This document shows, piece after piece, positions 24,047 through 63,042 of a DNA stretch of 64,000 nucleotides. A program made the translations under genes and the position numbers. The DNA comes from Blastocatellia bacterium (GTDB lineage: Bacteria > Acidobacteriota > Blastocatellia > UBA7656), in contig DASUNP010000004.1 in the NCBI GenBank assembly GCA_036277095.1, positions 115,300-179,299 of the forward strand, read 5' to 3'. Positions within the stretch are counted from its first letter, which is position 1, and the number at the start of each line of letters is the position of its first letter. Under the pieces are notes generated by a model. That model did no database searches and had not been told where the DNA came from. It worked only from the letters and a program-made list of their open reading frames with translations.

Positions 24047-24691
24047 TCACAGCACCCAGAGCGGCCGCGTCGGATAGTAATCTGGCGATTGGCCCGGATT
24101 GCGCTTGCTGAATTCGAGGTAGCGGCGGTGCCATTTCCGATAGCGGGCGTCGGATGAACGGATAGCCGCGTGCGGAATCTCCTGGAGGTGGCGCTCAACC
24201 TTCCACACGTTGCGGAGTGAGAACCTCCAATCGTAATTGCCCAGGTCGTTGAGGTCCGCGACGCTATACCCTGTTATGCGGCCGGTCTTATCTATGTAGG
24301 TATCGAAATAGCTCATCACGAGGTCGCGCACGGTGCGAAAGACGGGTTTGCGACCGTGAAGCCCGATGTCACGGGACCGCGCGACTGAACCGTAACGGTC
24401 GCCTTTCCTATAAAGAAATAAAACGTGGTCCAACAAGTCCTGCGACTCGATACTGACCAGCAGCGGGGGATAGCCCCAGTACTCCAGAATGACTGCCGCG
24501 ACGATCGCCGCCTCCAGACAATGAGCGCGGTTGTTTCTGATGACGCCGCGAAAAGAGAGGAGAGTCCCCCCGCCCTCTTCGCGGTTATAGGGGAGCGAGC
24601 TCAAATACCGCTGGACCTGGTAGGGCGTGCGATGACTATCGATGACGCTCAACTCTTTGGGCGTGAAATCTGATTTGGACGGCTTCATCAC
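24047..24691 (-). CDS. hypothetical protein, possibly a transglutaminase-like Cys-protease fold
   Basis: A Cys in AHCLEAAIV resembles the GxCxxFA environment of transglutaminase-like enzymes, with downstream His/Asp candidates. Weak assignment. The stop/start overlaps the upstream GT39 gene by 4 nt. Confidence 0.4.
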   Translation of the reverse strand: MMKPSKSDFTPKELSVIDSHRTPYQVQRYLSSLPYNREEGGGTLLSFRGVIRNNRAHCLEAAIVAAVILEYWGYPPLLVSIESQDLLDHVLFLYRKGDRYGSVARSRDIGLHGRKPVFRTVRDLVMSYFDTYIDKTGRITGYSVADLNDLGNYDWRFSLRNVWKVERHLQEIPHAAIRSSDARYRKWHRRYLEFSKRNPGQSPDYYPTRPLWVL

Positions 24692-26475
24692 TCGGGCCTG
24701 GTTCCTTTTTCGATCTTGTAAATTATCGCCTCCTGATTATTCGGAATCTCAAAGCTCGCGATCTTTGTGAAGCGCTCAGGCGCAGCCCGCAGAATCTCTT
24801 CGACGCGGCGCTCGGCGGGTGCGACGTAGTCTTCCGGCGCGTAGCCCGTGCGGACAAGAAGATAATCGCAAGTATCTATGCGGTCGAGCGCGGATTCGAC
24901 TACTAGCCAGTCGACGTAGATCAACGGCGGGCCTGCTCGTTCGGGGGCCATCAGGCGCGCGGTCATGCCGATGGTCGACGGATTCATTTGAGGCATGTTT
25001 ACTACAATCCCCAAAATCGCCTGCCCTGCTTCATCGAATATGCCTATGCCTTTCGTCGGAGGCGAGATAGTCTCTTCAGGGGTCGGCTGGCGACCGCTCG
25101 TCTGCCGATTGGCACTCTCAGACCTGTCCCTCATCTTCGCAAGCTCCTGGTCGCGGTGTGCTTTCACAGCCCGGACTATATCCTGGATCTTCCAATCATC
25201 AGACAACGGGTGATGGTCGAAGCCATAATAGTTTCTTGCGAATATCCTCCAACTGAAAAGCGGCAGCTCATAAGAGAGTCCATAACCGTCGCGCGGGTAT
25301 TGCGCATTCATGAAACTTACAACTGACCAAACCACGATAACGGCTGCCAGAGCCGGTTTCAGGGCGCGCTTGAGCTTCGATGCGGGCGACGGCTTTGAGC
25401 TTGTAAACCAACTGACCGACAGCAGCGCGACGGCGGGAAGAATAGGCACGGTGTAGCGAGCGTCTTTGTTTGCTACAAAAGTAAAGGCGATCATCCCGCT
25501 CAGGACCCAGAGGCTGAGCAACGCGGTCCCCTTGCGACGGCGGACCAGCGAGTAGATAAGTCCGAACAGGAAGAGCGCACCAAAAGGAACCTGCACCTGT
25601 GTGCTGAGCAGCGCGTGAACGTAAAACAGGTTCGACCCTATGGTGTAAAGCGGCGCTTCGTTTTCATTGACCGCGCCGACTTGATTCACCTTGTAAATCG
25701 CGATGACATCATCCAGATGCGGGACGTACCAGATGCCTGCGATGACTATTGCAACAGCCGCCGCGAGCACCAGATTCAAAATTGCCTTCGCGTCGCGGCT
25801 GATTAATACGCGGATCGTTATGTAGAGGGCGGGCAGGAAGAAAAAGAACGGGAACGTCTGCTTGGTCAGCATCCCTAATCCTGTGACTACGCCAAATGCA
25901 ACAGCGTGGCGGCGGACCTTAAAATCACCTGCGCGGATGAGCAAGGCGAAACTCAACGCGACTATCGCGATCAACGGGTAATCCAGGAATGCATCGTGGA
26001 CAAGCCACGCGGGGAAGTGGTAACAGACCACGAGCAGAGCTGCCAGAATGCCCGGCCAATAAACTGGTCGCCCGTTGCCGTTTGCACCCTCCAGGCTCTC
26101 TTTCGAGTAAAGGAACCTCGCTGTCCAGTAGACGGAGCCTAACAAGATTGCCAGTGAGATAAAGTTCACGCCTATGCCGGCCAGTCGAGACGCGCCGAAG
26201 ACCAGAAAGACGAGGGCCGTCACGATGTGGACCAGCGGCGCGTAGAAATGCGGCATGGAAAAAAAGTCCTTCGCGAAATCAGCAAACCGGAGGTGCGCCA
26301 GACTCTGATAGTAATCATAACCTGCGCTGATGTGGTCGGCGGGGTCCCAGGGCGGGGGCGTCTTGTCCAACTCGGTCCAGATGATGGTAGACAGACTTAC
26401 ACCCAGGAATAGGATCGCGAGCGGCAATACGTGTTTATAAGGTCGTAGTCTGTTTCCAGTCACGGTAGCGGGCAA
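24688..26475 (-). CDS. GT39/GT83-like (ArnT/PMT-type) membrane glycosyltransferase
   Basis: 595 aa. The N-terminal two-thirds has more than 10 predicted TM helices with a short first periplasmic loop (DxD-like region TELDKTPPPWDPADH). The C-terminal soluble domain is about 200 aa. Confidence 0.7.
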   Translation of the reverse strand: MPATVTGNRLRPYKHVLPLAILFLGVSLSTIIWTELDKTPPPWDPADHISAGYDYYQSLAHLRFADFAKDFFSMPHFYAPLVHIVTALVFLVFGASRLAGIGVNFISLAILLGSVYWTARFLYSKESLEGANGNGRPVYWPGILAALLVVCYHFPAWLVHDAFLDYPLIAIVALSFALLIRAGDFKVRRHAVAFGVVTGLGMLTKQTFPFFFFLPALYITIRVLISRDAKAILNLVLAAAVAIVIAGIWYVPHLDDVIAIYKVNQVGAVNENEAPLYTIGSNLFYVHALLSTQVQVPFGALFLFGLIYSLVRRRKGTALLSLWVLSGMIAFTFVANKDARYTVPILPAVALLSVSWFTSSKPSPASKLKRALKPALAAVIVVWSVVSFMNAQYPRDGYGLSYELPLFSWRIFARNYYGFDHHPLSDDWKIQDIVRAVKAHRDQELAKMRDRSESANRQTSGRQPTPEETISPPTKGIGIFDEAGQAILGIVVNMPQMNPSTIGMTARLMAPERAGPPLIYVDWLVVESALDRIDTCDYLLVRTGYAPEDYVAPAERRVEEILRAAPERFTKIASFEIPNNQEAIIYKIEKGTRPE

Positions 26476-26611
26476 TTATGTGGAATGCTTGCCTGGAAGG
26501 TCAAGCAGAGCTTGAATGTCTGAGAGTACAGCTTTGATCCATGCCCGCTTCGTTCGCATACGGCCAGGCTCGCTTTCAGCGCGCTAGAGGCGCGAACTAA
26601 ACGGGTCAGGC

Positions 26612-26626
26612 TGGCACAGCGGTTGC
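26612..26626 (+). promoter_or_regulatory. sigma-54 (RpoN) promoter consensus: TGGCAC-N5-TTGC
   Basis: cTGGCACagcggTTGCg, with correct GG(-24)/GC(-12) spacing. Lies about 30 nt upstream of an AGGAGG RBS and the ATG at 26655. Confidence 0.5.
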
Positions 26627-26654
26627 GATTATCAACATCAGGAGGGACGAATAG

Positions 26655-26855
26655 ATGTTAGCCGTACTTATACCAATATTGTTCTTCGCGATGCTCACAG
26701 TAGTCACTTTAGCGATTAGCTTTTATTGCGTAGACATCGTCTTGAGGTTAATCGGTCGTGGCCTCTTAAGCCAGGTTGCGCCGTCGCCCGAGCCTGTACG
26801 CGTCCAAACGGTCCACAGAGCTGCCACCGGGCCTTTGCGGGCGCTTAGAACTTGA
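26655..26855 (+). CDS. small hypothetical membrane protein (66 aa)
   Basis: Strong SD (AGGAGGG) 7 nt upstream. The N-terminal 35 aa form a TM helix (MLAVLIPILFFAMLTVVTLAISFYCVDIVL). Preceded by a sigma-54 consensus. Low GC. Confidence 0.35.
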   Translation: MLAVLIPILFFAMLTVVTLAISFYCVDIVLRLIGRGLLSQVAPSPEPVRVQTVHRAATGPLRALRT

Positions 26856-27043
26856 AGCCTTCGTCCTCGATTTCCCTTCGGCCCCCCTCCCTTTGACTCG
26901 CGCAACTTCTTTATCAATGGCGGCTTAACCTACACTTCCTAGTACCGAAACCATCCGGTAATTCTTCACCGCCACGTTCGGCCACTAAGGAATAAAGGCG
27001 CACTTTAGAGACAAAAAACGCTAAATCGATAGGGAGTCTTAAC

Positions 27044-27058
27044 TGGCACGCCTATTGC
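27044..27058 (+). promoter_or_regulatory. sigma-54 (RpoN) promoter consensus: TGGCAC-N5-TTGC
   Basis: aacTGGCACgcctaTTGCc. Lies about 55 nt upstream of the ATG at 27114, with SD GGGGTGA. Confidence 0.55.
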
Positions 27059-27113
27059 CACGGCTAGGTCGGAACGAACAAGGGTTTAGGGTAAACGAAA
27101 GGGGTGACGGGTA

Positions 27114-28193
27114 ATGCGAAGAGCAAGCGCTATCTTACTAATAATCATCTTCGGTTGCACGGGATTTGCGACCGCAGGGCTTGGCAATAATGTAGAGACG
27201 ATTGAGTCCATTCAGCCTCACGTCCTTCACTTAAAACTCAAGGCGGATGACCTGAGAACCATCGCTGACAAGCAGGTAGTTACACATCCGCTCTCTTCGA
27301 AGAACCCGAAAGTCCTGGCGGGGTTCGGCGTTGCCCTTGCGGACGCGACACCGGGAGCATTTGTTGAATCATATAAATCGCTCGATCAGCTTCACAAGAG
27401 CCCTTACGTCATCGAAGCCGGGAAATTCAGCGCAACGCCTAGCCTTGCAGACTTTGCTCGTCTCACGTTTGATGATAAAGAGCTCTATGCGCTATTCAAG
27501 GCGAAGCCAGGAAATTCAAACATAAAACTCTCGGACGAGGAGATCACAAGGATTCGCGCCGCGATCGGACAGGCCGCCCGTTTCACGCCTCAAGTCAAAA
27601 CGCAATTGGCGAGCGAATATAAAAAGCTCCTTGTCGAGCGCGTCAAAGCTTACAGCGCGGGTCGTCCAGCGCTGGGCGTCTTTGCGGACAAGGATAAGCC
27701 TGTAGATGCACAAGAGGCATTCGACTCGCTCGCAGACGAACAGAAAGCAGGGGCCGGGCATTGCTCGCACCTCTACTCGCATCTGGAGAGCTACCCCGCC
27801 GGAGCCACTGCCGAGTCGGAGTCATTCATTTACTGGGCGAAGCAGAGGTTTGGAGATGCCAAGCCGGTTCTTAGCCTCGTCCACGTTCTGATTCACAACG
27901 AAGGCGAGAGAGTATTCATAGCCTCAAAGCAGATCTATTCCAACCATTACACTGAGGCCGCGTTGTCCGTAGCAGAATTGATTCATTTCAAAGACTCGGT
28001 TGGGCACTCGCGCACCGTGATCGCTTACACGATTCGCCTCCAGGCAGACATGCTCGGCGGCACGCTGGGATTCATGAAGAAGCGGATGGCCCAGCCTAAA
28101 CTGCTCGGCACGCTCAAACAGAGCATCAACGGATTGCGGACGAATATGGAAGCTCTGAGCCGCGATTCGAATGCTACGCGAGCGGGATTCTAA
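27114..28193 (+). CDS. secreted hypothetical protein (359 aa) with N-terminal signal peptide
   Basis: MRRASAILLIIIFGCTGFATAG is a signal peptide, possibly a lipoprotein (Cys15). No recognisable domain. Downstream of a sigma-54 consensus promoter. Confidence 0.6.
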   Translation: MRRASAILLIIIFGCTGFATAGLGNNVETIESIQPHVLHLKLKADDLRTIADKQVVTHPLSSKNPKVLAGFGVALADATPGAFVESYKSLDQLHKSPYVIEAGKFSATPSLADFARLTFDDKELYALFKAKPGNSNIKLSDEEITRIRAAIGQAARFTPQVKTQLASEYKKLLVERVKAYSAGRPALGVFADKDKPVDAQEAFDSLADEQKAGAGHCSHLYSHLESYPAGATAESESFIYWAKQRFGDAKPVLSLVHVLIHNEGERVFIASKQIYSNHYTEAALSVAELIHFKDSVGHSRTVIAYTIRLQADMLGGTLGFMKKRMAQPKLLGTLKQSINGLRTNMEALSRDSNATRAGF

Positions 28194-28552
28194 GTCGCGG
28201 GCTGATTCTTGTGCGACTGAATCGCCTGGCGAAGCGACGATGAGGTGATTGCAAAGTGCGAGGCGTTCCAGATCTGACGGCCATCGCGGACAAGTATCGC
28301 TTGAGGGGTTTCGTGGCGAACGCCTAACCGCGAGGCGATTTCATTAGAGATGGGGCGCGCGCTCTGGACCGTTATCAGGTTGTAACTGACCTCGGGGTCG
28401 GCCTTTTCCAGATAGGAGATCAACTCGTTATAAGCGCGCAGGCTGATTGGGCAAGTCAGGCTGTGTTTGAACAGAAGCACAGGCCTCCGGCTCGAATCGG
28501 CAAGCGCCTTCTCTAGCTCTTTTATTTGCCTGATTTCCCTGATCGTTTTCAT
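28190..28552 (-). CDS. YtxJ-family thioredoxin-like protein (bacillithiol-system redox protein family, DUF2847)
   Basis: Diagnostic single-Cys motif LFKHSLTCPIS (TCPIS). Length 120 aa. Confidence 0.7.
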   Translation of the reverse strand: MKTIREIRQIKELEKALADSSRRPVLLFKHSLTCPISLRAYNELISYLEKADPEVSYNLITVQSARPISNEIASRLGVRHETPQAILVRDGRQIWNASHFAITSSSLRQAIQSHKNQPAT

Positions 28553-28793
28553 CGGTCAAATTCCCCCTGCTTCAATACTATTTACAGCGTGAGTCGTCGG
28601 TTTGCAAGCCGTCGGCTAAGAGGGGCTTAAATCCAGGCACAAAAAACTTTTCTGGCGGGCCACGCGCGGAGCCTGAGAAACATCGCAATCCAGGGGAAAA
28701 AGCTGGACGGGGTCGAAAAGAGTCGCCGGCCCGCGCCGCTTGCACACCTTACCGGGCGCGGGATGCCTGGATTTCAGTAAACGGAGTATAAGC

Positions 28794-30536
28794 ATGTGCC
28801 CTAAAGCCATACGCCAGACGCTTGCCGCAACCCTGATCGCGTTAGCTTTGATATCGATGCTGCCCGCGGATTTTGCTTCCGCGGCGCAAAGCTCTGCCCA
28901 GGCTAACCGGCCAAAGCGGGGCAAAAACGGGCAAATAGTGACCGGAAGCGGCTCGCAAAGCGCGCCTGCTCGGAAGACGACGAGCCCGACCGTCGAGCTA
29001 CCGAGGCAGGAGAGCGAACCCGTCGCGGAGGGCGAAGATCTTCCGCCTGCGGCTCAGACCCAGACTCGGACAAAGGCCCCGCCGCCGGTTTCTAGTTCTT
29101 CGCAAAGGACAATGGACAACACGGCGCAGCGCCCGCAGCCGACACAGCAACGCCGCGAGCCGCCACCGTTCGACCGCCCGCCGCTAGACGCAGGGCAGCA
29201 GTCTCAACAGACGTCGCAGCCCCGCGTAACTCAACCCCCTGCGAGCCCTCAAACCGCCGATTCGTCTACGCCTACATATCGGTCGTCGCAAGGCGGGAGG
29301 CCGCGAGTCGAGCAGAGACGGGATGCAGACCCCGCGCCGTCTAATAACGACAGAGGGCGCGCCACCCCGCCGGACCTGGGCGGTTATGATCAACAGAATC
29401 GCAGGGAGAAGGATAAACCCGTGCTTCGCCGCCGGTCGGACCCTCCCGCACGCGCTGAACAGGAGACAGACGATCCGGGTCCAATCGCCTCGTCGAAGTC
29501 CGAATCTACGCCGCCCGTTGATGAAAGCGACGAGGTCAGGCTCGACGCGACGCTCGTCAATATCCCTATACTCGTCAGCGACCGCTCCGGGCGCTACATC
29601 CCGCAACTGTCTCAGAACGATTTTCTGCTTTACGAAGACGGGACCCAGCAGGAGATAGCTTTTTTCGGCGATGAGCAAGTGCCTTTCAACGTCGCCCTTG
29701 TGCTTGACGTCAGCCCGAGCGTCCAGGGGAGCCTTGAAGAGATTCAACGCGCGGCGCTCGAATTCGTGCGCCAGCTTCGCGGCGGCGACCGCGTGATGAT
29801 CGTCTCCTTTGATAAGGACATACATTATCACACGGACTTTACTAGTAACCGGCGCGAGCTTGAATCAGCAATACGCAATACCGAGACCGGGTCCGGGACA
29901 AGCGTGTATGACGCCGTCTATGAAGTCGTCAGCCGTAAGCTTAGCGCAATCGAAGGTCGCAAGGCTTTGATATTGCTTTCCGACGGCGAAGACACGACGA
30001 GCAGCCACGCGAGCTATGACGAGGCTGTCAACGTAGTGACAGAGTCGGACGTGCTGGTTTACGGGCTTCGATACGATAGCGGTGGAGGAGGGAATATAAG
30101 AATAGACCCCTGGCCTCGAAACCGCATCCCGGATCTCCCGATACCGCTGCCCTGGCCCTGGCCCTTCCCGCGCAGGCGCAGAGGCGGAACCTTTGCAGAC
30201 CCGAACTCGATGCTGATGAACGCCGCCCCGACTGTTACAGCAGCGGCGCAGGGACGCGGGCGACGTGGCCGCCAGGGCGATTTCATGGAAGACCTGGCTA
30301 CTGCTGGCGGCGGCCCCGTTTATGACGCGGACAACATCAGCGATTTGAGCCGGCTCGCAGCGCGCGTAGCCGAAGAGTTGCGTCATGTTTATCAAATAAG
30401 CTACTACCCTACGAATGCGCTTACAAACGGTGGGTATCGCTCAATAAGAGTCCGTGTGCGAGGGCGTGACGACATAGCCGTTCGTCACCGTCGAGGCTAC
30501 AACGCTCGCGACGTTGCCACGCGACCTTCGACTTGA
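28794..30536 (+). CDS. secreted protein with C-terminal VWA-like module (tentatively the 'VWFA-related Acidobacterial domain' family)
   Basis: Signal peptide MCPKAIRQTLAATLIALALISMLPADFASA. A disordered region of about 250 aa rich in Pro/Gln/Ser/Arg follows. The C-terminal VWA-like module reads LVNIPILVSDRSGRYIPQLSQNDFLLYEDGTQQEIAFF ... VALVLDVSPS ... ILLSDGEDT ... YYPTN...GGYRSIRVRV. The track ORF starts at 28740; the ATG at 28794 gives the signal peptide. Confidence 0.75.
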   Translation: MCPKAIRQTLAATLIALALISMLPADFASAAQSSAQANRPKRGKNGQIVTGSGSQSAPARKTTSPTVELPRQESEPVAEGEDLPPAAQTQTRTKAPPPVSSSSQRTMDNTAQRPQPTQQRREPPPFDRPPLDAGQQSQQTSQPRVTQPPASPQTADSSTPTYRSSQGGRPRVEQRRDADPAPSNNDRGRATPPDLGGYDQQNRREKDKPVLRRRSDPPARAEQETDDPGPIASSKSESTPPVDESDEVRLDATLVNIPILVSDRSGRYIPQLSQNDFLLYEDGTQQEIAFFGDEQVPFNVALVLDVSPSVQGSLEEIQRAALEFVRQLRGGDRVMIVSFDKDIHYHTDFTSNRRELESAIRNTETGSGTSVYDAVYEVVSRKLSAIEGRKALILLSDGEDTTSSHASYDEAVNVVTESDVLVYGLRYDSGGGGNIRIDPWPRNRIPDLPIPLPWPWPFPRRRRGGTFADPNSMLMNAAPTVTAAAQGRGRRGRQGDFMEDLATAGGGPVYDADNISDLSRLAARVAEELRHVYQISYYPTNALTNGGYRSIRVRVRGRDDIAVRHRRGYNARDVATRPST

Positions 30537-30777: not shown

Positions 30778-32970
30778 ATGAAGAACCGAGTCCCCCGACG
30801 CCCGAACTTGATCGTTGCATTGATAATTACACTTGCATTGATGGCCTTAGACCTGACACCCGTCGTAAACGCGCAGGCCGCAGCTTCGCGGGTCGAGACC
30901 TTTAGTCTCGCTCCTGACGGCCAGGTGAGAGTCGAGAACTTGAGAGGCGCAACGAGCATTGAAGTCTGGAACGAAGACAGCGTACGAGTTGTTGCCGAGC
31001 GGAAGACCCCGCCTTCGCTTGCGCTTGAGCCTGCCGACGTGGTTCTGATGAGCGCGCAGAACACTGTCATCATCGAGTGCAGGCAATCGGGTAAACCTGG
31101 TCGAATCGACCTGACGGTTTATCTGCCTGCGTACGCACACATTCAATTAACGGGCGGCACCTGGCCCGTAGAAGTCAACGGGCCACTGGCGAGCGCCGTC
31201 GTCGAAACGACAGGCGGCAGCATTTCTTATCTATTGCCAAAGAGCGATGACGCGCATGTCGTGATGCGGTCGGCGCGCGGCGTCGTAAAATCTACTGTTG
31301 AGCTTGCCGAGATGGAGCGTGTCGGCACGAACAGTCTGCAAGGCAAGCTCGGTGCGGGCACCTCGCCGATCATGCTCAATAGTCGAACCGGCAACATCAC
31401 TCTTTCTCCCGGCGCAAGCTTTTCAACTATCGCTAAAGCTTCATACGGGCGACCCGCTGCGAGCACGCAGGGCGATCAACAGAGCAGGCAATCGCCTGAC
31501 CGGGAGGATCAAGGCTACCGAGGCGACTATTCGCGGCAGTATCCATCCGCGCAGCCTTCACGTGACCCCGATCTGATTATTCCCGGATCACCTAAGCCGG
31601 GGTATGGCGCCTCTCGCGGGCCAGTCTCTTCGGGCGGTCAGAGGTCGAGCGGCGATTGGACTGACCTCGCCGGGCAGCAGAGGGAGGACGACAACAGCAG
31701 CACAAACAAAGGCGGACCGATCTTGCGCCCGAGGGAAGAGAAGATCAATAGCAACAACGGAGCAGGGTTCAGGGTCAGAATAATCCCGGCGGATTCCACG
31801 TCCTCGGGAGCGAGGCGACCCAGCAATCCCATCTATGACGATCCAGTTGAAGAGCAATCACGCAAGCCACAACAGGGCGGCAATCGCTCGTCCGGCACAT
31901 GGTCCGATCAGGCTACATACGATCCTCAAACCGGCTGGTCTGACGCCAAAAAGCCTGCTCGCGTTGAGCTCGCTGAAGAATCTGCAGTCGATAGCTCCAG
32001 CTCAAGCAGACGCGGCGACCCGCCGCCTTCGCTCAGGCGAAGCCCGAGCGGAGAACCCACCCCTGAGGCGTCGCAGCCTGCGGCTTCCAGGCCGGAAGAC
32101 GACGAGATCGTTCTCAACTCTGCTGTGGTCAACCTGAATGTCAGCGTCACCGATAGGTCTGGGCTGGCGCTGGCAAACTTGAAGAAAGAGGATTTCGAAG
32201 TCTATGAGAACAACGAGCGACAAGCCGTTGAATTCTTTGCACCCAGCACAACCCCTTTTAACCTTGTGTTGCTGCTTGACCTGTCCGGTTCGATAAAGGA
32301 CAAGCTCGACGTAGTCAAGGCGGCTGCTTTGCGATTCATAGACGTGATCGGGCCGCAGGACAAGGTCGCCGTCCTCACTTTTACGCACGAGGTGAGGGTC
32401 GTGTCGCAATTGACTGCGAACCGCGACATCCTCCGCAAGCGAATTAAAGAGATCGAAAAGCCCGAAGGCGGCACCGCGTTTTATGATGCGATGTGGTGGG
32501 CGATGCTCGACACGCTGCGAGGCACTGCGGGGCAGCGAAACGCGATAGTCGTGATGACGGATGGCGTGGACAGCTCGCTCGACCGCTACAACCCGGCGGA
32601 GACTCGCGTGACGTTTAATCAACTCGCGCGCAAGCTCGAAGAGTCGGACGTGATAGTCTTCCCGATCTACCTTGATACCGAGTACGAAGAGGTTTTTGTG
32701 CGCGGGAACGGATCGTCCGAGAGTTACGCCATGGCGCGGACGCAGCTTGAGAAGATAGCCGAGCTTTCGGGCGGCCAGCATTTCAAGGCCGAGCAGGCGA
32801 AGGATCTGTCGGGAGTATACAAGCAAGTTGCCGCCGCATTGCGCACGCTTTACAGCGTCGGTTATTACCCGACTAATTCCGAGCGCGATGGCACATACAG
32901 GCGCGTGCGCGTGGGCGTAACACGGCCCAATGCCGCCGTCCGGTCAAGAAAGGGGTATTACGCCAAGTAA
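30778..32970 (+). CDS. secreted protein: N-terminal beta-rich adhesin-like (DUF4097-like) domain, disordered linker, C-terminal VWA-like module (paralog of 28794-30536)
   Basis: Signal peptide. Repetitive beta-strand region (VRVENLRGATSIEVWNEDSVRVVAERK ... IDLTVYLPAYAHIQLTGGTWPVEVNG). The C-terminal module aligns with the upstream paralog: LNSAVVNLNVSVTDRSGLALANLKKEDFEVYENNERQAVEFF ... LVLLLDLSGS ... VVMTDGVDS ... YYPTNSERDGTYRRVRVGV. Confidence 0.75.
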   Translation: MKNRVPRRPNLIVALIITLALMALDLTPVVNAQAAASRVETFSLAPDGQVRVENLRGATSIEVWNEDSVRVVAERKTPPSLALEPADVVLMSAQNTVIIECRQSGKPGRIDLTVYLPAYAHIQLTGGTWPVEVNGPLASAVVETTGGSISYLLPKSDDAHVVMRSARGVVKSTVELAEMERVGTNSLQGKLGAGTSPIMLNSRTGNITLSPGASFSTIAKASYGRPAASTQGDQQSRQSPDREDQGYRGDYSRQYPSAQPSRDPDLIIPGSPKPGYGASRGPVSSGGQRSSGDWTDLAGQQREDDNSSTNKGGPILRPREEKINSNNGAGFRVRIIPADSTSSGARRPSNPIYDDPVEEQSRKPQQGGNRSSGTWSDQATYDPQTGWSDAKKPARVELAEESAVDSSSSSRRGDPPPSLRRSPSGEPTPEASQPAASRPEDDEIVLNSAVVNLNVSVTDRSGLALANLKKEDFEVYENNERQAVEFFAPSTTPFNLVLLLDLSGSIKDKLDVVKAAALRFIDVIGPQDKVAVLTFTHEVRVVSQLTANRDILRKRIKEIEKPEGGTAFYDAMWWAMLDTLRGTAGQRNAIVVMTDGVDSSLDRYNPAETRVTFNQLARKLEESDVIVFPIYLDTEYEEVFVRGNGSSESYAMARTQLEKIAELSGGQHFKAEQAKDLSGVYKQVAAALRTLYSVGYYPTNSERDGTYRRVRVGVTRPNAAVRSRKGYYAK

Positions 32971-37993: not shown

Positions 37994-38774
37994 GATTTTG
38001 AGCACAGGCCGTAGAAGAGTCCGGTCGCCAGATTGTGGCGGAATAGCTACCGGCAGGCGGCAGTGGTGTGGCGTTTTTTACCCAAGTTTCATGCGCTCCC
38101 TGAGCGCTGCGTCAGAGCTTGACTTGCGCGCCCTGAACTCTTCAACCCACGCCTGGGTCCTTAGAACAAGCTCAGAGGTTGAAGGCTGTTCAGCCTCTTT
38201 GCTCGTCTTGTCAACCTGCTGACCCCTTTTGACCAATCTAACCGTCATTGTCTTAAACCTCGTCAAAAAATCTAACGCAATATTCTTGGCAAATAAGATG
38301 CCAAAGAGTTCTTTCTATGATTGTGCCCAATTCAAAGGTCAGTCTCAGCATTTTTTCGGCGACGGTGAGAGAAAATCATACGAGAAGGAAGATCGATGTA
38401 CGCAAACGGAATCCTCCTGGGCCTGTTCAACTTGATTCTCTGAAGGTCGAGGGATACCATAGAAAAAGGAATCCGTTGCAGGGTGCAGGCGAATTCGTAA
38501 CGGCTAGACGAGAGGCGCCATGAATGTGCAAAGCGCTTTTCGTTGAAAAGCGGCAACACCCCGAGCCCGTAGCCGCATCCAACAGACGACGGAGAGCCGT
38601 CGAGGCGCGATGCGCTTTCTAGTCCTTCTGAAAAGCATCCAGCGCTCAGGCAAGCTCCAATTGTCAGTCTTGAGATCTCTTTCGATGTGCCGCGATATGG
38701 GTGCCCCCGTAATTCGCCAGGCCCGTTTGAATAGGCCATCTAATACTTTGTGAAGGTACGTAGGCTTTAACGCG

Positions 38775-61638: not shown

Positions 61639-63042
61639 ATGGAAAACGTTGTGCTGATAGTCGACGACGAGCCGGCCGCGCGATACGGGATGAGGCGGGC
61701 GCTCGAAAAGGAAGGGCATAGGATATTTGAAGCCGACAGCGTCGCTTCTGCCGAACAGGTAGTCGATAGCCAATCGCCAAGCGTCATACTTCTGGACGTA
61801 AAGTTAGCCTCAGAATCGGGGCTTGATTACCTGCCCGAGTTGGTCGCGCGAAAGGAGGCGCCGGTCGTCATCATAGTCACAGCGCATGGCTCGGAGCGGC
61901 TCGCCGTTGAGGCGATTAAGAAGGGCGCTTTTGATTACCTCGCCAAGCCTTTTGACGTCGATGAGCTGCGGATACTTGTAAGAAACGCGCTCGGCGCTTA
62001 CAGGCTCAGGACTGAGAACGAGCAGCTTCGTAATGAGCTGTCGGGAACCGAGACCTATGGTCAGTTGATAGGCTCATCACCGGCCATGTCGAGGGTCTAT
62101 TCACTCATCGAAAAGATTTCGCAGACGGACGTGAGCGTGCTGATAATGGGCGAATCAGGCACGGGCAAAGAGATGGTCGCCAGGGAGATTCACGCGCGCA
62201 GCAGGGCGGGAGCTGGCCCTTTTGTTGCGCTCAATTGCGCCGCGATGCCGGAGGAATTGATCGAGTCCGAGCTATTCGGTCACGAGAAAGGGGCCTTTAC
62301 CGGCGCGACGGGGAAGAGAATTGGCAAGTTTGAGGCAGCCAACAAAGGGACTCTCTTTTTGGATGAGATCGGCGATATGAGCCTCTCGACACAGGCAAAG
62401 GTTCTGCGTGTGATTGAGGAAAAGAAGTTCCAGCGGCTGGGTAGCAATGAGCTTCTTTCGACCGACGTTCGGATTATTAGCGCGACCAACAAGAATCTGG
62501 AAAAAGAGGTCGAGCAGCAACGATTCAGGGAAGATTTATTCTACCGTCTAGCGGTCGTCTCCCTGACCCTTCCGCCACTCAGGGAACGAAAGACCGACAT
62601 ACCGGCGCTTGCCCAGTCATTCTGCGACAGATATTCGGTGGCTTATAGAACAGGCCCTTTAAGGATCTCAAAACCAGCCCTTAAAGTAATGCTTGAGCAT
62701 GGCTGGCCAGGCAACGTTAGACAACTTCGTAATGTAATTGAGCGATCTGTAGTTCTTACTGAAGGTGAAGAAATTACATTAGATGTATTGCCTCAAGAAT
62801 TAACGGCTAAACAATTCCAGGAAGAGGTGATAGCAGATCTCTCAGGCGGGATAAATATACCCCTCTCGTTAAACTTTAAGGATGCAAAAAGAGAGTTTGA
62901 GCGAAAATACATCGAACGGTGTTTAGAAAGCACATCCGGGAACATCACGCAGGCGGCATCCATGCTTGGTATGCACCGTCAAAGCCTTCAGCATAAGATT
63001 AAAGAGCTTGGGCTGACCAAACGCTTTATTTCGACAGACTAA
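61639..63042 (+). CDS. sigma-54-dependent two-component response regulator (NtrC/AtoC family bEBP)
   Basis: Receiver domain (VLIVDDEP, D in LLDVKL). AAA+ sigma-54 activation domain with Walker A GESGTGKE, the GAFTGA motif and an arginine finger. C-terminal Fis-type HTH. Confidence 0.9.
   Translation: MENVVLIVDDEPAARYGMRRALEKEGHRIFEADSVASAEQVVDSQSPSVILLDVKLASESGLDYLPELVARKEAPVVIIVTAHGSERLAVEAIKKGAFDYLAKPFDVDELRILVRNALGAYRLRTENEQLRNELSGTETYGQLIGSSPAMSRVYSLIEKISQTDVSVLIMGESGTGKEMVAREIHARSRAGAGPFVALNCAAMPEELIESELFGHEKGAFTGATGKRIGKFEAANKGTLFLDEIGDMSLSTQAKVLRVIEEKKFQRLGSNELLSTDVRIISATNKNLEKEVEQQRFREDLFYRLAVVSLTLPPLRERKTDIPALAQSFCDRYSVAYRTGPLRISKPALKVMLEHGWPGNVRQLRNVIERSVVLTEGEEITLDVLPQELTAKQFQEEVIADLSGGINIPLSLNFKDAKREFERKYIERCLESTSGNITQAASMLGMHRQSLQHKIKELGLTKRFISTD

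What the first reader, a model, noticed from the sequence alone, without database searches (positions are those of the whole stretch)
26476..27113. Two sigma-54 promoter consensus sites in one 640-bp intergenic region, driving a small membrane-peptide ORF and a secreted hypothetical protein
Seen in sequence. cTGGCACagcggTTGCg (26612-26626) and cTGGCACgcctaTTGCc (27044-27058) both have the exact GG-N10-GC spacing of RpoN promoters. Both are oriented toward the + strand genes. The first sits about 30 nt before an AGGAGG SD and the 66-aa TM-helix ORF at 26655. The second sits about 55 nt before the 359-aa signal-peptide protein at 27114.

Established knowledge. Sigma-54 promoters strictly require a bacterial enhancer-binding protein. 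This window encodes an NtrC-family bEBP (61639-63042) and two cognate-type histidine kinases.

Inference. The 26655 and 27114 genes may form a small RpoN regulon responding to one of these two-component systems. Finding two such matches in 640 bp is unlikely by chance.
Basis: partly seen in the sequence, partly recalled or inferred. Interest (0 to 1): 0.55.

Follow-up and report, generated by a model that had tools for sequence, protein, structure and literature searches.

The report
Two conserved sigma-54 promoters, Blastocatellia locus
Two textbook sigma-54 promoter motifs lie in one intergenic region of an uncultured soil acidobacterium and are kept at the same two positions in about 15 related genomes, so they are almost certainly real promoters for a tiny membrane protein gene and an exported lipid-binding-fold protein gene; this is a solid but ordinary regulatory finding.

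Summary
TGGCAC-N5-TTGC occurs at 26612-26626 and 27044-27058, both on the + strand. These are the only two exact matches in 64 kb (0.19 expected).

Comparative evidence makes chance untenable. Across 27 related Blastocatellia loci (188.6 kb), 32 matches to TGG[CT]A[CT]-N5-TTGC occur where 1.75 are expected, and all are on the + strand. 14 sit 26-40 nt before a conserved small ORF, and 14 sit about 40-75 nt before the 359-aa gene. GG and GC are invariant, while the spacer varies.

Each promoter has a conserved block about 80-160 nt upstream, which is a candidate enhancer. No terminator separates the two genes. One relative (L002) has lost P1 and the small ORF but kept P2.

Verdict: real sigma-54 promoters, a new member of a known kind, of modest interest.

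The parts
26475..26504 (-). Sigma-70-type promoter of the divergent glycosyltransferase gene. It reads TTGACC-18-CATAAT, with the -35 at 26499-26504 and the -10 at 26475-26480.
   Evidence: Found by the consensus scan with 10 of 12 matches. GGTCAAGC and ATTATG are conserved with 17-18 nt spacing in distant loci L003, L004, L010, L011 and L019. This implies that the glycosyltransferase starts at GTG 26463, not TTG 26475.
26499..26563 (.). Conserved block upstream of P1. It contains the palindrome TCAAGC-AGA-GCTTGA (26501-26515), GAGTACAGCTTTGATCCA (26524-26541) and CCGCTTCGTTCGCATACGG (26545-26563). It is a candidate enhancer for P1, a regulatory site of the divergent promoter, or both.
   Evidence: Almost invariant in the 5-genome alignment A3, whereas the following 45 nt are not. 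The GTAY-N7-RKYCR element is found 76-141 nt before the -24 element in 12 of 15 loci. It lies at a roughly fixed 23-34 nt from the divergent -35 by my own count on the sequences, so assigning it to one promoter is ambiguous.
26612..26626 (+). P1, the distal sigma-54 promoter core TGGCAC-AGCGG-TTGC. The predicted transcription start is near 26638.
   Evidence: Exact consensus. It is conserved as TGGCA[CT]-N5-TTGC, 26-40 nt before the small-ORF ATG where measured, in all 15 genomes that have the small ORF (14 fetched loci plus the window). It is the only stretch of the intergenic region that blastn still aligns to distant locus L003.
26640..26645 (+). Shine-Dalgarno sequence AGGAGG of the small ORF.
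   Evidence: Read directly. Comparable GGAGG-type sites precede the ORF in all relatives.
26655..26855 (+). Gene for a 66-aa single-pass membrane protein. It has an N-terminal hydrophobic helix with the motif GISF-C-E-VLR-IGRG and a basic, proline-rich tail.
   Evidence: Found by tblastn, or as an ORF, in 14 other loci and aligned as A2. dN/dS is 0.12-0.30 over the first 38 codons. The 30-member family is all 'hypothetical' and, wherever a source names the organism, Blastocatellia. It has no Pfam or NCBIfam match.
26917..26958 (+). Conserved block upstream of P2: ATGGCGGCTTAACCTACAC..AGTACCGAAACCATCCGG. It is a candidate enhancer for P2.
   Evidence: Conserved in A3 and in L002. The core AGTAY(n)GAAAGCCGTYC recurs 77-157 nt before the proximal -24 element in all 16 loci examined, in otherwise unalignable spacers.
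27044..27058 (+). P2, the proximal sigma-54 promoter core TGGCAC-GCCTA-TTGC. The predicted transcription start is near 27070.
   Evidence: Exact consensus. It is conserved as TGG[CT]A[CT]-N5-TTGC, about 40-75 nt before the 359-aa gene's ATG, in 15 genomes (14 fetched loci plus the window). The spacer varies freely: CCTA, CCTC, ACTC, GGCT, AGTC, TGTT, CATT. It is retained in L002, which lacks P1 and the small ORF.
27094..27105 (+). Conserved ribosome-binding context AACGAAAGGGGT of the 359-aa gene.
   Evidence: Present in nearly all homologous loci, including those without sigma-54 sites.
27114..28193 (+). Gene for a 359-aa exported protein with a START/SRPBCC (helix-grip) fold. The N-terminus MRR-ASAILLIIIFGC is a signal peptide with a lipobox-like Cys.

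Best explanation
The 26464-27113 region of this Blastocatellia (Acidobacteriota) genome carries two functional sigma-54 (RpoN) -24/-12 promoters in tandem on the + strand.

P1 (26612-26626) starts transcription near 26638 and drives a short-leader mRNA for a 66-aa single-pass membrane protein. P2 (27044-27058) starts near 27070 and drives the 359-aa exported START-fold protein.

No terminator lies between the two genes. P1 transcripts therefore probably read through, so the START-fold gene is fed by both promoters, while P2 can act alone.

Like all sigma-54 promoters, each should be silent until an AAA+ enhancer-binding protein opens the closed complex. That protein would bind upstream, most plausibly at the conserved blocks 26499-26563 and 26917-26958. 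It is not identified and is probably encoded elsewhere in the genome.

What is shown: the motifs, their conservation, the reality of both genes, and the predicted fold. What is inferred: the start sites, RpoN dependence, read-through, the enhancer assignment, and a role in the cell envelope or in lipid handling.
For: - **Motif in the window.** The two sites are the only exact matches in 64 kb, against 0.19 expected, and are the two top weight-matrix scores.
- **Motif in related loci.** In 188.6 kb of 27 related loci, 32 matches to TGG[CT]A[CT]-N5-TTGC occur against 1.75 expected, all on the + strand. 28 of them lie at the two orthologous positions.
- **P1 conservation.** P1 is present in all 15 genomes that carry the small ORF (14 fetched loci plus the window), 26-40 nt before its ATG where measured.
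- **P2 conservation.** P2 is present in 15 genomes. GG and GC are invariant and the spacer is free, which is the footprint expected of sigma-54 contacts.
- **Flanks have diverged.** Blastn aligns only the P1 core to L003.
- **Natural experiment.** L002 lost P1 and the small ORF but kept P2.
- **Sigma-54 machinery exists.** The window encodes a GAFTGA-bearing activator. In relative L008 a canonical site follows an activator gene.
- **Placement.** Correctly placed and oriented sites in sigma-54-containing genomes are reported to be mostly genuine (PMC3162934).
- **Candidate enhancers.** Conserved blocks sit at enhancer-typical distances.
- **No barrier between the genes.** No terminator and no significant RNA fold lie between them.
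Against: - There are no transcription data of any kind.
- rpoN itself is not in the window: no RpoN box was found.
- No activator gene lies within 30 kb of the locus.
- The upstream blocks lack a clear dyad symmetry. The distal block keeps a fixed distance to the divergent sigma-70 promoter, so it may serve that promoter instead.
- The -11 position is G or C rather than the consensus A/T.
- P1 leaves only about 17 nt of leader.
- More distant family members (L012-L018) have no such sites, so control by sigma-54 is specific to one clade.
Confidence: 0.82

Rival explanations
1. The NtrC-type response regulator at 61639-63042, partnered with one of the window's histidine kinases, would be the activator of P1 and P2, forming a small local RpoN regulon.
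For: It is the only sigma-54 activator in the 64-kb window, with REC, AAA+ (GAFTGA) and Fis-type HTH domains. Two histidine kinases are also present.
Against: - It lies 35 kb away, adjacent to a DUF4147/MOFRL gene and not to a kinase.
- No copy of the conserved upstream motifs lies near it.
- No fetched orthologous locus has an activator of this type nearby.
- The sister clade (L008, L020) pairs the gene family with a GAF-type activator instead.
- From my own knowledge, acidobacterial genomes usually encode many such activators, so one being present in the same 64 kb is weak evidence.
Confidence: 0.1
2. The conserved motifs would be operators of a dimeric transcription factor, or some other conserved DNA element, rather than sigma-54 promoters. 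In the window P2 reads TGGCA-N7-TGCCA, which is a perfect palindrome.
For: The P2 sequence TGGCACGCCTATTGCCA is palindromic in the window and in L001. A similar palindrome, TTGGCA-N7-TGCCAA at 38287-38304, scores as sigma-54-like on both strands but looks like an operator.
Against: - The palindrome is not conserved. L002, L003, L004, L007, L010 and L019 break it, yet all keep GG-N10-GC.
- P1 is not palindromic.
- All 32 matches in the related loci point the same way as the genes.
- The distances to the start codons fit promoters.
Confidence: 0.05
3. Only one of the two sites would be a working promoter. For example, P1 drives a two-gene operon and P2 is a decaying or redundant copy, or the reverse.
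For: No terminator lies between the genes. In L011 the P2 position reads TTGT instead of TTGC while P1 is intact. In L002 only P2 exists.
Against: Both sites keep invariant GG and GC across lineages whose synonymous sites are saturated, which argues that each is under selection. Each also has its own conserved upstream block.
Confidence: 0.1
4. The two motifs would be chance matches in a G+C-balanced intergenic region.
For: A single site of this strength appears in roughly a quarter of shuffled 64-kb windows. 2 of 100 shuffles gave two exact matches somewhere in the window.
Against: Both matches fall within 432 nt, on the same strand, in one non-coding region, and each is correctly placed before a gene. 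In addition, 28 orthologous matches occur in the related loci, where 32 matches in total compare with 1.75 expected.
Confidence: 0.01

Closest known systems
Sigma-54 (RpoN) dependent -24/-12 promoters, such as glnAp2, nifH and pspA. The consensus is TGGCACG-N4-TTGCW (Barrios et al. 1999, as used in PMC3162934).
   Same: Exact TGGCAC-N5-TTGC cores with GG and GC 10 nt apart. The sites are intergenic, co-oriented with the downstream gene, and 28-55 nt before the start codon. Conserved blocks lie about 80-160 nt upstream, where enhancers sit. A GAFTGA activator is present in the genome.
   Different: The -11 base is G or C rather than A/T. No adjacent activator gene and no identified enhancer dyad. 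Two such promoters lie in tandem within 432 nt. There is no experimental support in this phylum that I could find.
The phage-shock (psp) system of Enterobacteria. This is a sigma-54 and PspF dependent envelope-stress operon that includes small single-pass membrane proteins (PspB, PspG).
   Same: The logic is similar: a sigma-54 promoter drives a very small membrane protein together with an envelope-located partner. This is in line with the proposal that sigma-54 mainly controls the cell exterior (PMC3162934).
   Different: The 66-aa protein has no sequence similarity to any Psp family (no Pfam or NCBIfam hits). There is no PspA or PspF homologue at the locus. The partner is a START-fold protein. 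This is an analogy only.
START / SRPBCC (Bet v 1-like, helix-grip) superfamily. Examples are the Xanthomonas START-related lipid-transfer protein 3qsz, polyketide cyclases, CoxG and PYR/PYL receptors.
   Different: There is no detectable sequence relationship. At about 335 mature residues it is roughly twice the usual size, with a helical insertion of about 115 residues (111-226). It is exported or lipid-anchored. Named members of the family are all Blastocatellia.

Membership tests
Sigma-54 dependent promoter | -24 GG and -12 GC elements exactly 10 nt apart, within a TGGCAC-N5-TTGC-like core | tested here: met
   Both sites match all 10 specified bases and hold the top two weight-matrix scores in the window.
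Sigma-54 dependent promoter | Intergenic location, co-oriented with the downstream gene and within about 300 nt of its start codon | tested here: met
   The sites lie 28 nt and 55 nt before the ATGs at 26655 and 27114, on the + strand like both genes. This is the criterion of PMC3162934.
Sigma-54 dependent promoter | Evolutionary retention of the GG and GC dinucleotides and their spacing while the spacer and flanks drift | tested here: met
   15 distal and 15-16 proximal orthologous sites (window included) have invariant GG and GC and variable spacers. In the fetched loci there are 32 matches against 1.75 expected, all on the + strand.
Sigma-54 dependent promoter | The host encodes sigma-54 (rpoN) | tested here: inconclusive
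   No RpoN box is encoded in the 64-kb window. A GAFTGA-bearing activator, which has no role without sigma-54, is present. The rest of the genome was not available.
Sigma-54 dependent promoter | A cognate enhancer-binding protein, with a binding site about 80-150 nt or more upstream | tested here: inconclusive
   Conserved blocks lie at the right distance (26499-26563 and 26917-26958). They have no clear dyad, and no activator could be assigned. The GTAY-N7-RKYCR pattern was defined after looking at the data.
Sigma-54 dependent promoter | Transcription start about 12 nt downstream of the GC, and dependence on rpoN and ATP hydrolysis by the activator | not testable with these tools
   This needs 5'-end mapping and genetics or in vitro transcription.
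START / SRPBCC superfamily (359-aa protein) | Helix-grip fold: an antiparallel beta-sheet wrapped around a long C-terminal helix, forming a hydrophobic cavity | tested here: met
START / SRPBCC superfamily (359-aa protein) | Match to a curated sequence model of the superfamily (Pfam, NCBIfam) or to a solved relative by sequence | tested here: not met
   There are no Pfam or NCBIfam families at E <= 0.01 and no PDB sequence relative. The protein is therefore filed as START-like by fold only.
Psp-type small membrane proteins (PspB, PspG) for the 66-aa ORF | Sequence match to the family models | tested here: not met
   No Pfam or NCBIfam hit. Homologues are only 'hypothetical' proteins, named Blastocatellia where any name is given.

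The most novel reading that the evidence does not exclude
P1, P2 and their GTAY-containing upstream elements may define a Blastocatellia-specific envelope module controlled by sigma-54. In it, a largely unannotated single-pass membrane peptide and an exported START-fold lipid-binding (lipo)protein would work together. Their role could be lipid sensing or lipid trafficking under stress, similar in logic to the Psp response. A shared upstream site could co-ordinate them with the divergent GT39/PMT-like glycosyltransferase. A single, still unknown activator would recognise one site before each promoter.
Probability: 0.2. Interest if true: 0.5.

Novelty: new member of a known kind. Interest (0 to 1): 0.3.

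Why it matters
I found no published experimental work on sigma-54 promoters in Acidobacteria. This locus offers two promoters, supported by cross-genome conservation, that could anchor a lineage-specific sigma-54 model.

It also exposes a conserved small membrane-protein gene that gene callers skipped in three of three close relatives. It assigns a lipid-binding fold to a family of about 150 'hypothetical' exported proteins.

The association fits the proposal that sigma-54 mainly governs the cell exterior. It does not challenge any existing concept.

Tried and rejected
- **Rfam.** A scan of 26000-28500 at E <= 1 found no RNA family.
- **Terminator and RNA structure.** The terminator scan and the RNA fold of the 198-nt spacer between the small ORF and P2 found no terminator. 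The fold z-score was -1.0. A structured RNA element or an independent transcription stop was therefore dropped.
- **Protein family searches.** Pfam and NCBIfam gave nothing for either protein. A PDB sequence search with the family profile gave nothing.
- **Unavailable library.** The afdb50 fold library was not available.
- **Activator or rpoN near the locus.** Six-frame searches for GAFTGA, ESELFGH and the RpoN box found only the activator at 61639-63042 and no rpoN.
- **Upstream motif elsewhere.** I tested whether the candidate upstream motif also precedes the sigma-54 site next to the GAF-type activator of L008, L005 or L020. It does not, so that activator cannot be nominated.
- **IHF site.** I considered an IHF site (WATCAA-N4-TTR) on the reverse strand of the distal GTAC element. 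By eye there are only partial matches, and I did not pursue it.
- **Relationship between the two upstream elements.** I considered that the distal and proximal elements are inverted copies of one site. Their similarity is limited to GTAY-N7-RKYCR and the pattern was defined post hoc, so I do not claim this.
- **Literature.** Searches for sigma-54 in Acidobacteria or Blastocatellia found nothing relevant.

Full report
**Observation**

Reading 26200-27400 confirms cTGGCACagcggTTGCg at 26612-26626 and cTGGCACgcctaTTGCc at 27044-27058, both on the + strand. A pattern search shows these are the only exact TGGCAC-N5-TTGC matches on either strand of the 64-kb window. The expectation is 0.19, and 2 of 100 shuffles reached two matches. 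Allowing one mismatch adds only four weaker sites, which is close to expectation.

In a rough weight matrix built from the published consensus (my own approximation), the two sites score 15.9 and 15.4 bits, ranking first and second. One site of that strength does occur in about a quarter of shuffled windows. The case therefore rests on pairing, placement and conservation.

**Organism and genes**

The 359-aa product is 100% identical to a 'hypothetical protein' of a Blastocatellia metagenome-assembled genome on a 275-kb contig. It has 157 homologues. Wherever a source names the organism it is Blastocatellia, and none has a Pfam domain. Neither it nor the 66-aa ORF matches Pfam or NCBIfam.

The neighbours are:
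- a divergent PMT_2-like glycosyltransferase of about 590 aa, followed by a 214-aa protein with a weak vasohibin-like hit;
- a convergent BrxC monothiol bacilliredoxin;
- two VWA-domain proteins.

The same order recurs in every related contig examined: the 213-aa gene and the glycosyltransferase on the - strand, then divergently the small ORF and the ~360-aa gene on the + strand, then BrxC on the - strand.

**Comparative test of the promoters**

I fetched 20 loci from species-representative genomes with a family profile and 7 more through exact-protein look-ups.

- **P1.** A TGGCA[CT]-N5-TTGC site lies 26-40 nt (where measured) upstream of a homologue of the small ORF in all 14 fetched loci that have one: L001, L003, L004, L007, L010, L011, L019 and L021-L027. 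With the window that makes 15.
- **P2.** A TGG[CT]A[CT]-N5-TTGC site lies about 40-75 nt upstream of the large gene's ATG in 14 fetched loci, 15 with the window. L009 has one at -138. L011 has TTGT in place of TTGC.
- **Conservation pattern.** Among the unique sequences, T, GG, A, TT and G are invariant, and C of the GC is invariant except in L011 P2. The four to five spacer bases vary freely, especially at P2. This is the pattern expected if selection acts on sigma-54 contacts rather than on the sequence as a whole.
- **Overall count.** Over all 188.6 kb of fetched loci there are 32 matches on both strands against 1.75 expected from shuffles. All 32 are on the gene strand, and 28 are at these two positions.
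- **Diverged flanks.** Outside the close relatives the non-coding DNA is unalignable. Blastn of the whole intergenic region against L003 recovers only the 39 nt around P1.
- **Natural experiment.** L002 (68% protein identity) has lost about 370 nt, including P1 and the small ORF, but keeps P2 and its upstream block.

PMC3162934 reports that, in genomes with sigma-54, consensus-like sites that are correctly oriented and within about 300 nt of a start codon are mostly genuine.

**The small ORF is a gene**

The eight first-found homologues align with a conserved hydrophobic N-terminus, an invariant Cys, and the motif GISF-C-E-VLR-IGRG. Nei-Gojobori dN/dS over the first 38 codons is 0.12-0.30 in all unsaturated pairs. 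Indels in the tail are in frame.

A profile search of 5.8 billion proteins finds only 30 members. All that carry a name are 'hypothetical', from Blastocatellia. Two of them have locus tags adjacent to the large gene's homologue. Gene callers missed the ORF in L021, L022 and L023.

**The large protein**

An AlphaFold2 model from a 28-sequence alignment has pLDDT 83 and pTM 0.82. Residues 1-24 are disordered, as expected for a signal peptide.

About 150 of the 335 mature residues form the helix-grip core, and residues 111-226 are a helical insertion. The N-terminus MRR-ASAILLIIIFGC resembles a lipoprotein signal. Several relatives have ILGC or ILSC, while others lack the Cys. No sequence-level relative exists in the PDB. 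I therefore call it START-like by fold only.

**Upstream elements**

Aligning the five closest intergenic regions shows two strongly conserved blocks.

- **Block 1 (26499-26563).** It begins with the -35 of a sigma-70-type promoter for the divergent gene: TTGACC-18-CATAAT at 26504-26475 on the - strand, conserved even in distant loci. It continues through GAGTACAGCTTTGATCCA and CCGCTTCGTTCGCATACGG. Conservation then collapses until P1.
- **Block 2 (26917-26958).** It lies 86-127 nt before P2. Its core AGTAY(n)GAAAGCCGTYC is found 77-157 nt before the proximal -24 element in all 16 loci examined.

A degenerate description, GTAY-N7-RKYCR, fits 12 of 15 distal and 14 of 16 proximal upstream regions. 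It occurs only four times in the whole window, two of them here. I derived that pattern from these sequences, so it is a lead, not a test.

The distal element keeps a roughly constant 23-34 nt from the divergent -35 (my count on the sequences). It may therefore serve that promoter, P1, or both. Neither block shows a convincing dyad.

**Architecture**

No intrinsic terminator, no Rfam family and no unusually stable fold lies between the small ORF and P2. P1 transcripts therefore probably continue into the large gene. The convergent BrxC gene overlaps the large gene's stop, which bounds the unit.

**The activator**

The window encodes one activator (61639-63042; REC, AAA+ with GAFTGA, and HTH_8 domains) and two histidine kinases. 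Nothing connects them to this locus. The activator is 35 kb away, next to a DUF4147/MOFRL gene, and the candidate motifs are absent there.

In a sister clade (L008, L020) the homologous gene lies just downstream of a GAF-type (FhlA/NifA-like) activator. In L008 a canonical sigma-54 site follows that activator gene. This shows that the lineage uses the canonical motif and that this gene family is repeatedly associated with sigma-54. That clade lacks the GTAY motif, however. No rpoN is in the window.

**Verdict**

The proposed link to the local two-component genes is unsupported.

The feature is a new, well-supported example of a known kind of promoter. It comes with two side results: an overlooked small membrane-protein gene and a fold assignment for an unannotated exported protein family.

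I found no prior literature on sigma-54 promoters in this phylum. Nothing here is mechanistically surprising, so I score interest at 0.3.

Noticed in passing
window 26463-26504 (- strand): A conserved sigma-70-type promoter (TTGACC-18-CATAAT) ends at 26475. This is exactly where the mechanical ORF list starts the 595-aa glycosyltransferase (TTG). The real start is probably GTG at 26463, as called in relative L022. That leaves a leader of only about 5 nt, making the mRNA nearly leaderless.
   Followed up: partly
window 26501-26515: A perfect palindrome, TCAAGC-AGA-GCTTGA, overlaps the -35 of the divergent promoter. It is conserved in the five closest genomes but not in distant ones, and may be an operator.
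   Followed up: no
window 38287-38304: The palindrome TTGGCA-N7-TGCCAA lies in the non-coding stretch between the CoaBC gene and the next gene. It scores as sigma-54-like on both strands but looks more like a transcription-factor operator.
   Followed up: no
L008 80-5002; L020 253-2562; L016 1115-1129; L020 2840-2854: In a sister clade the START-like gene lies downstream of a GAF-type sigma-54 activator. In L008 the order is activator gene, TGGCAC-N5-TTGC site (1611-1625), then an Ndh-like oxidoreductase ORF and further ORFs, then the START-like gene. In L016 and L020 another canonical sigma-54 site follows the START-like gene. The L020 copy of the gene carries an internal deletion (271 aa).
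   Followed up: partly
window 27094-27105 and equivalent positions in L001-L011, L019, L020: The ribosome-binding context AACGAAAGGGGT(A/G) before the START-like gene is conserved far beyond the Shine-Dalgarno core. This holds even in loci that lack sigma-54 sites, which hints at a constraint at the level of translation.
   Followed up: no
window 24047-24691 and 24688-26463 (- strand): A 214-aa protein with a weak vasohibin-like (transglutaminase-like peptidase) Pfam hit overlaps the end of the PMT_2-like glycosyltransferase gene by 4 nt. A gene of about 213 aa sits next to the glycosyltransferase in most related contigs examined, suggesting a conserved two-gene operon divergent from the sigma-54 unit.
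   Followed up: no
window 28740-30536 and 30778-32970: Two adjacent VWA-domain proteins have long N-terminal regions of low complexity, rich in Pro, Ser, Gln and Arg. They are also syntenic in relatives L021-L023 and L027.
   Followed up: no
L002 3742-3763: This 5.7-Mb Blastocatellia contig has a clean loss of about 370 nt that removes P1 and the small ORF. The distal upstream block is joined almost directly to the proximal block and P2.
   Followed up: partly
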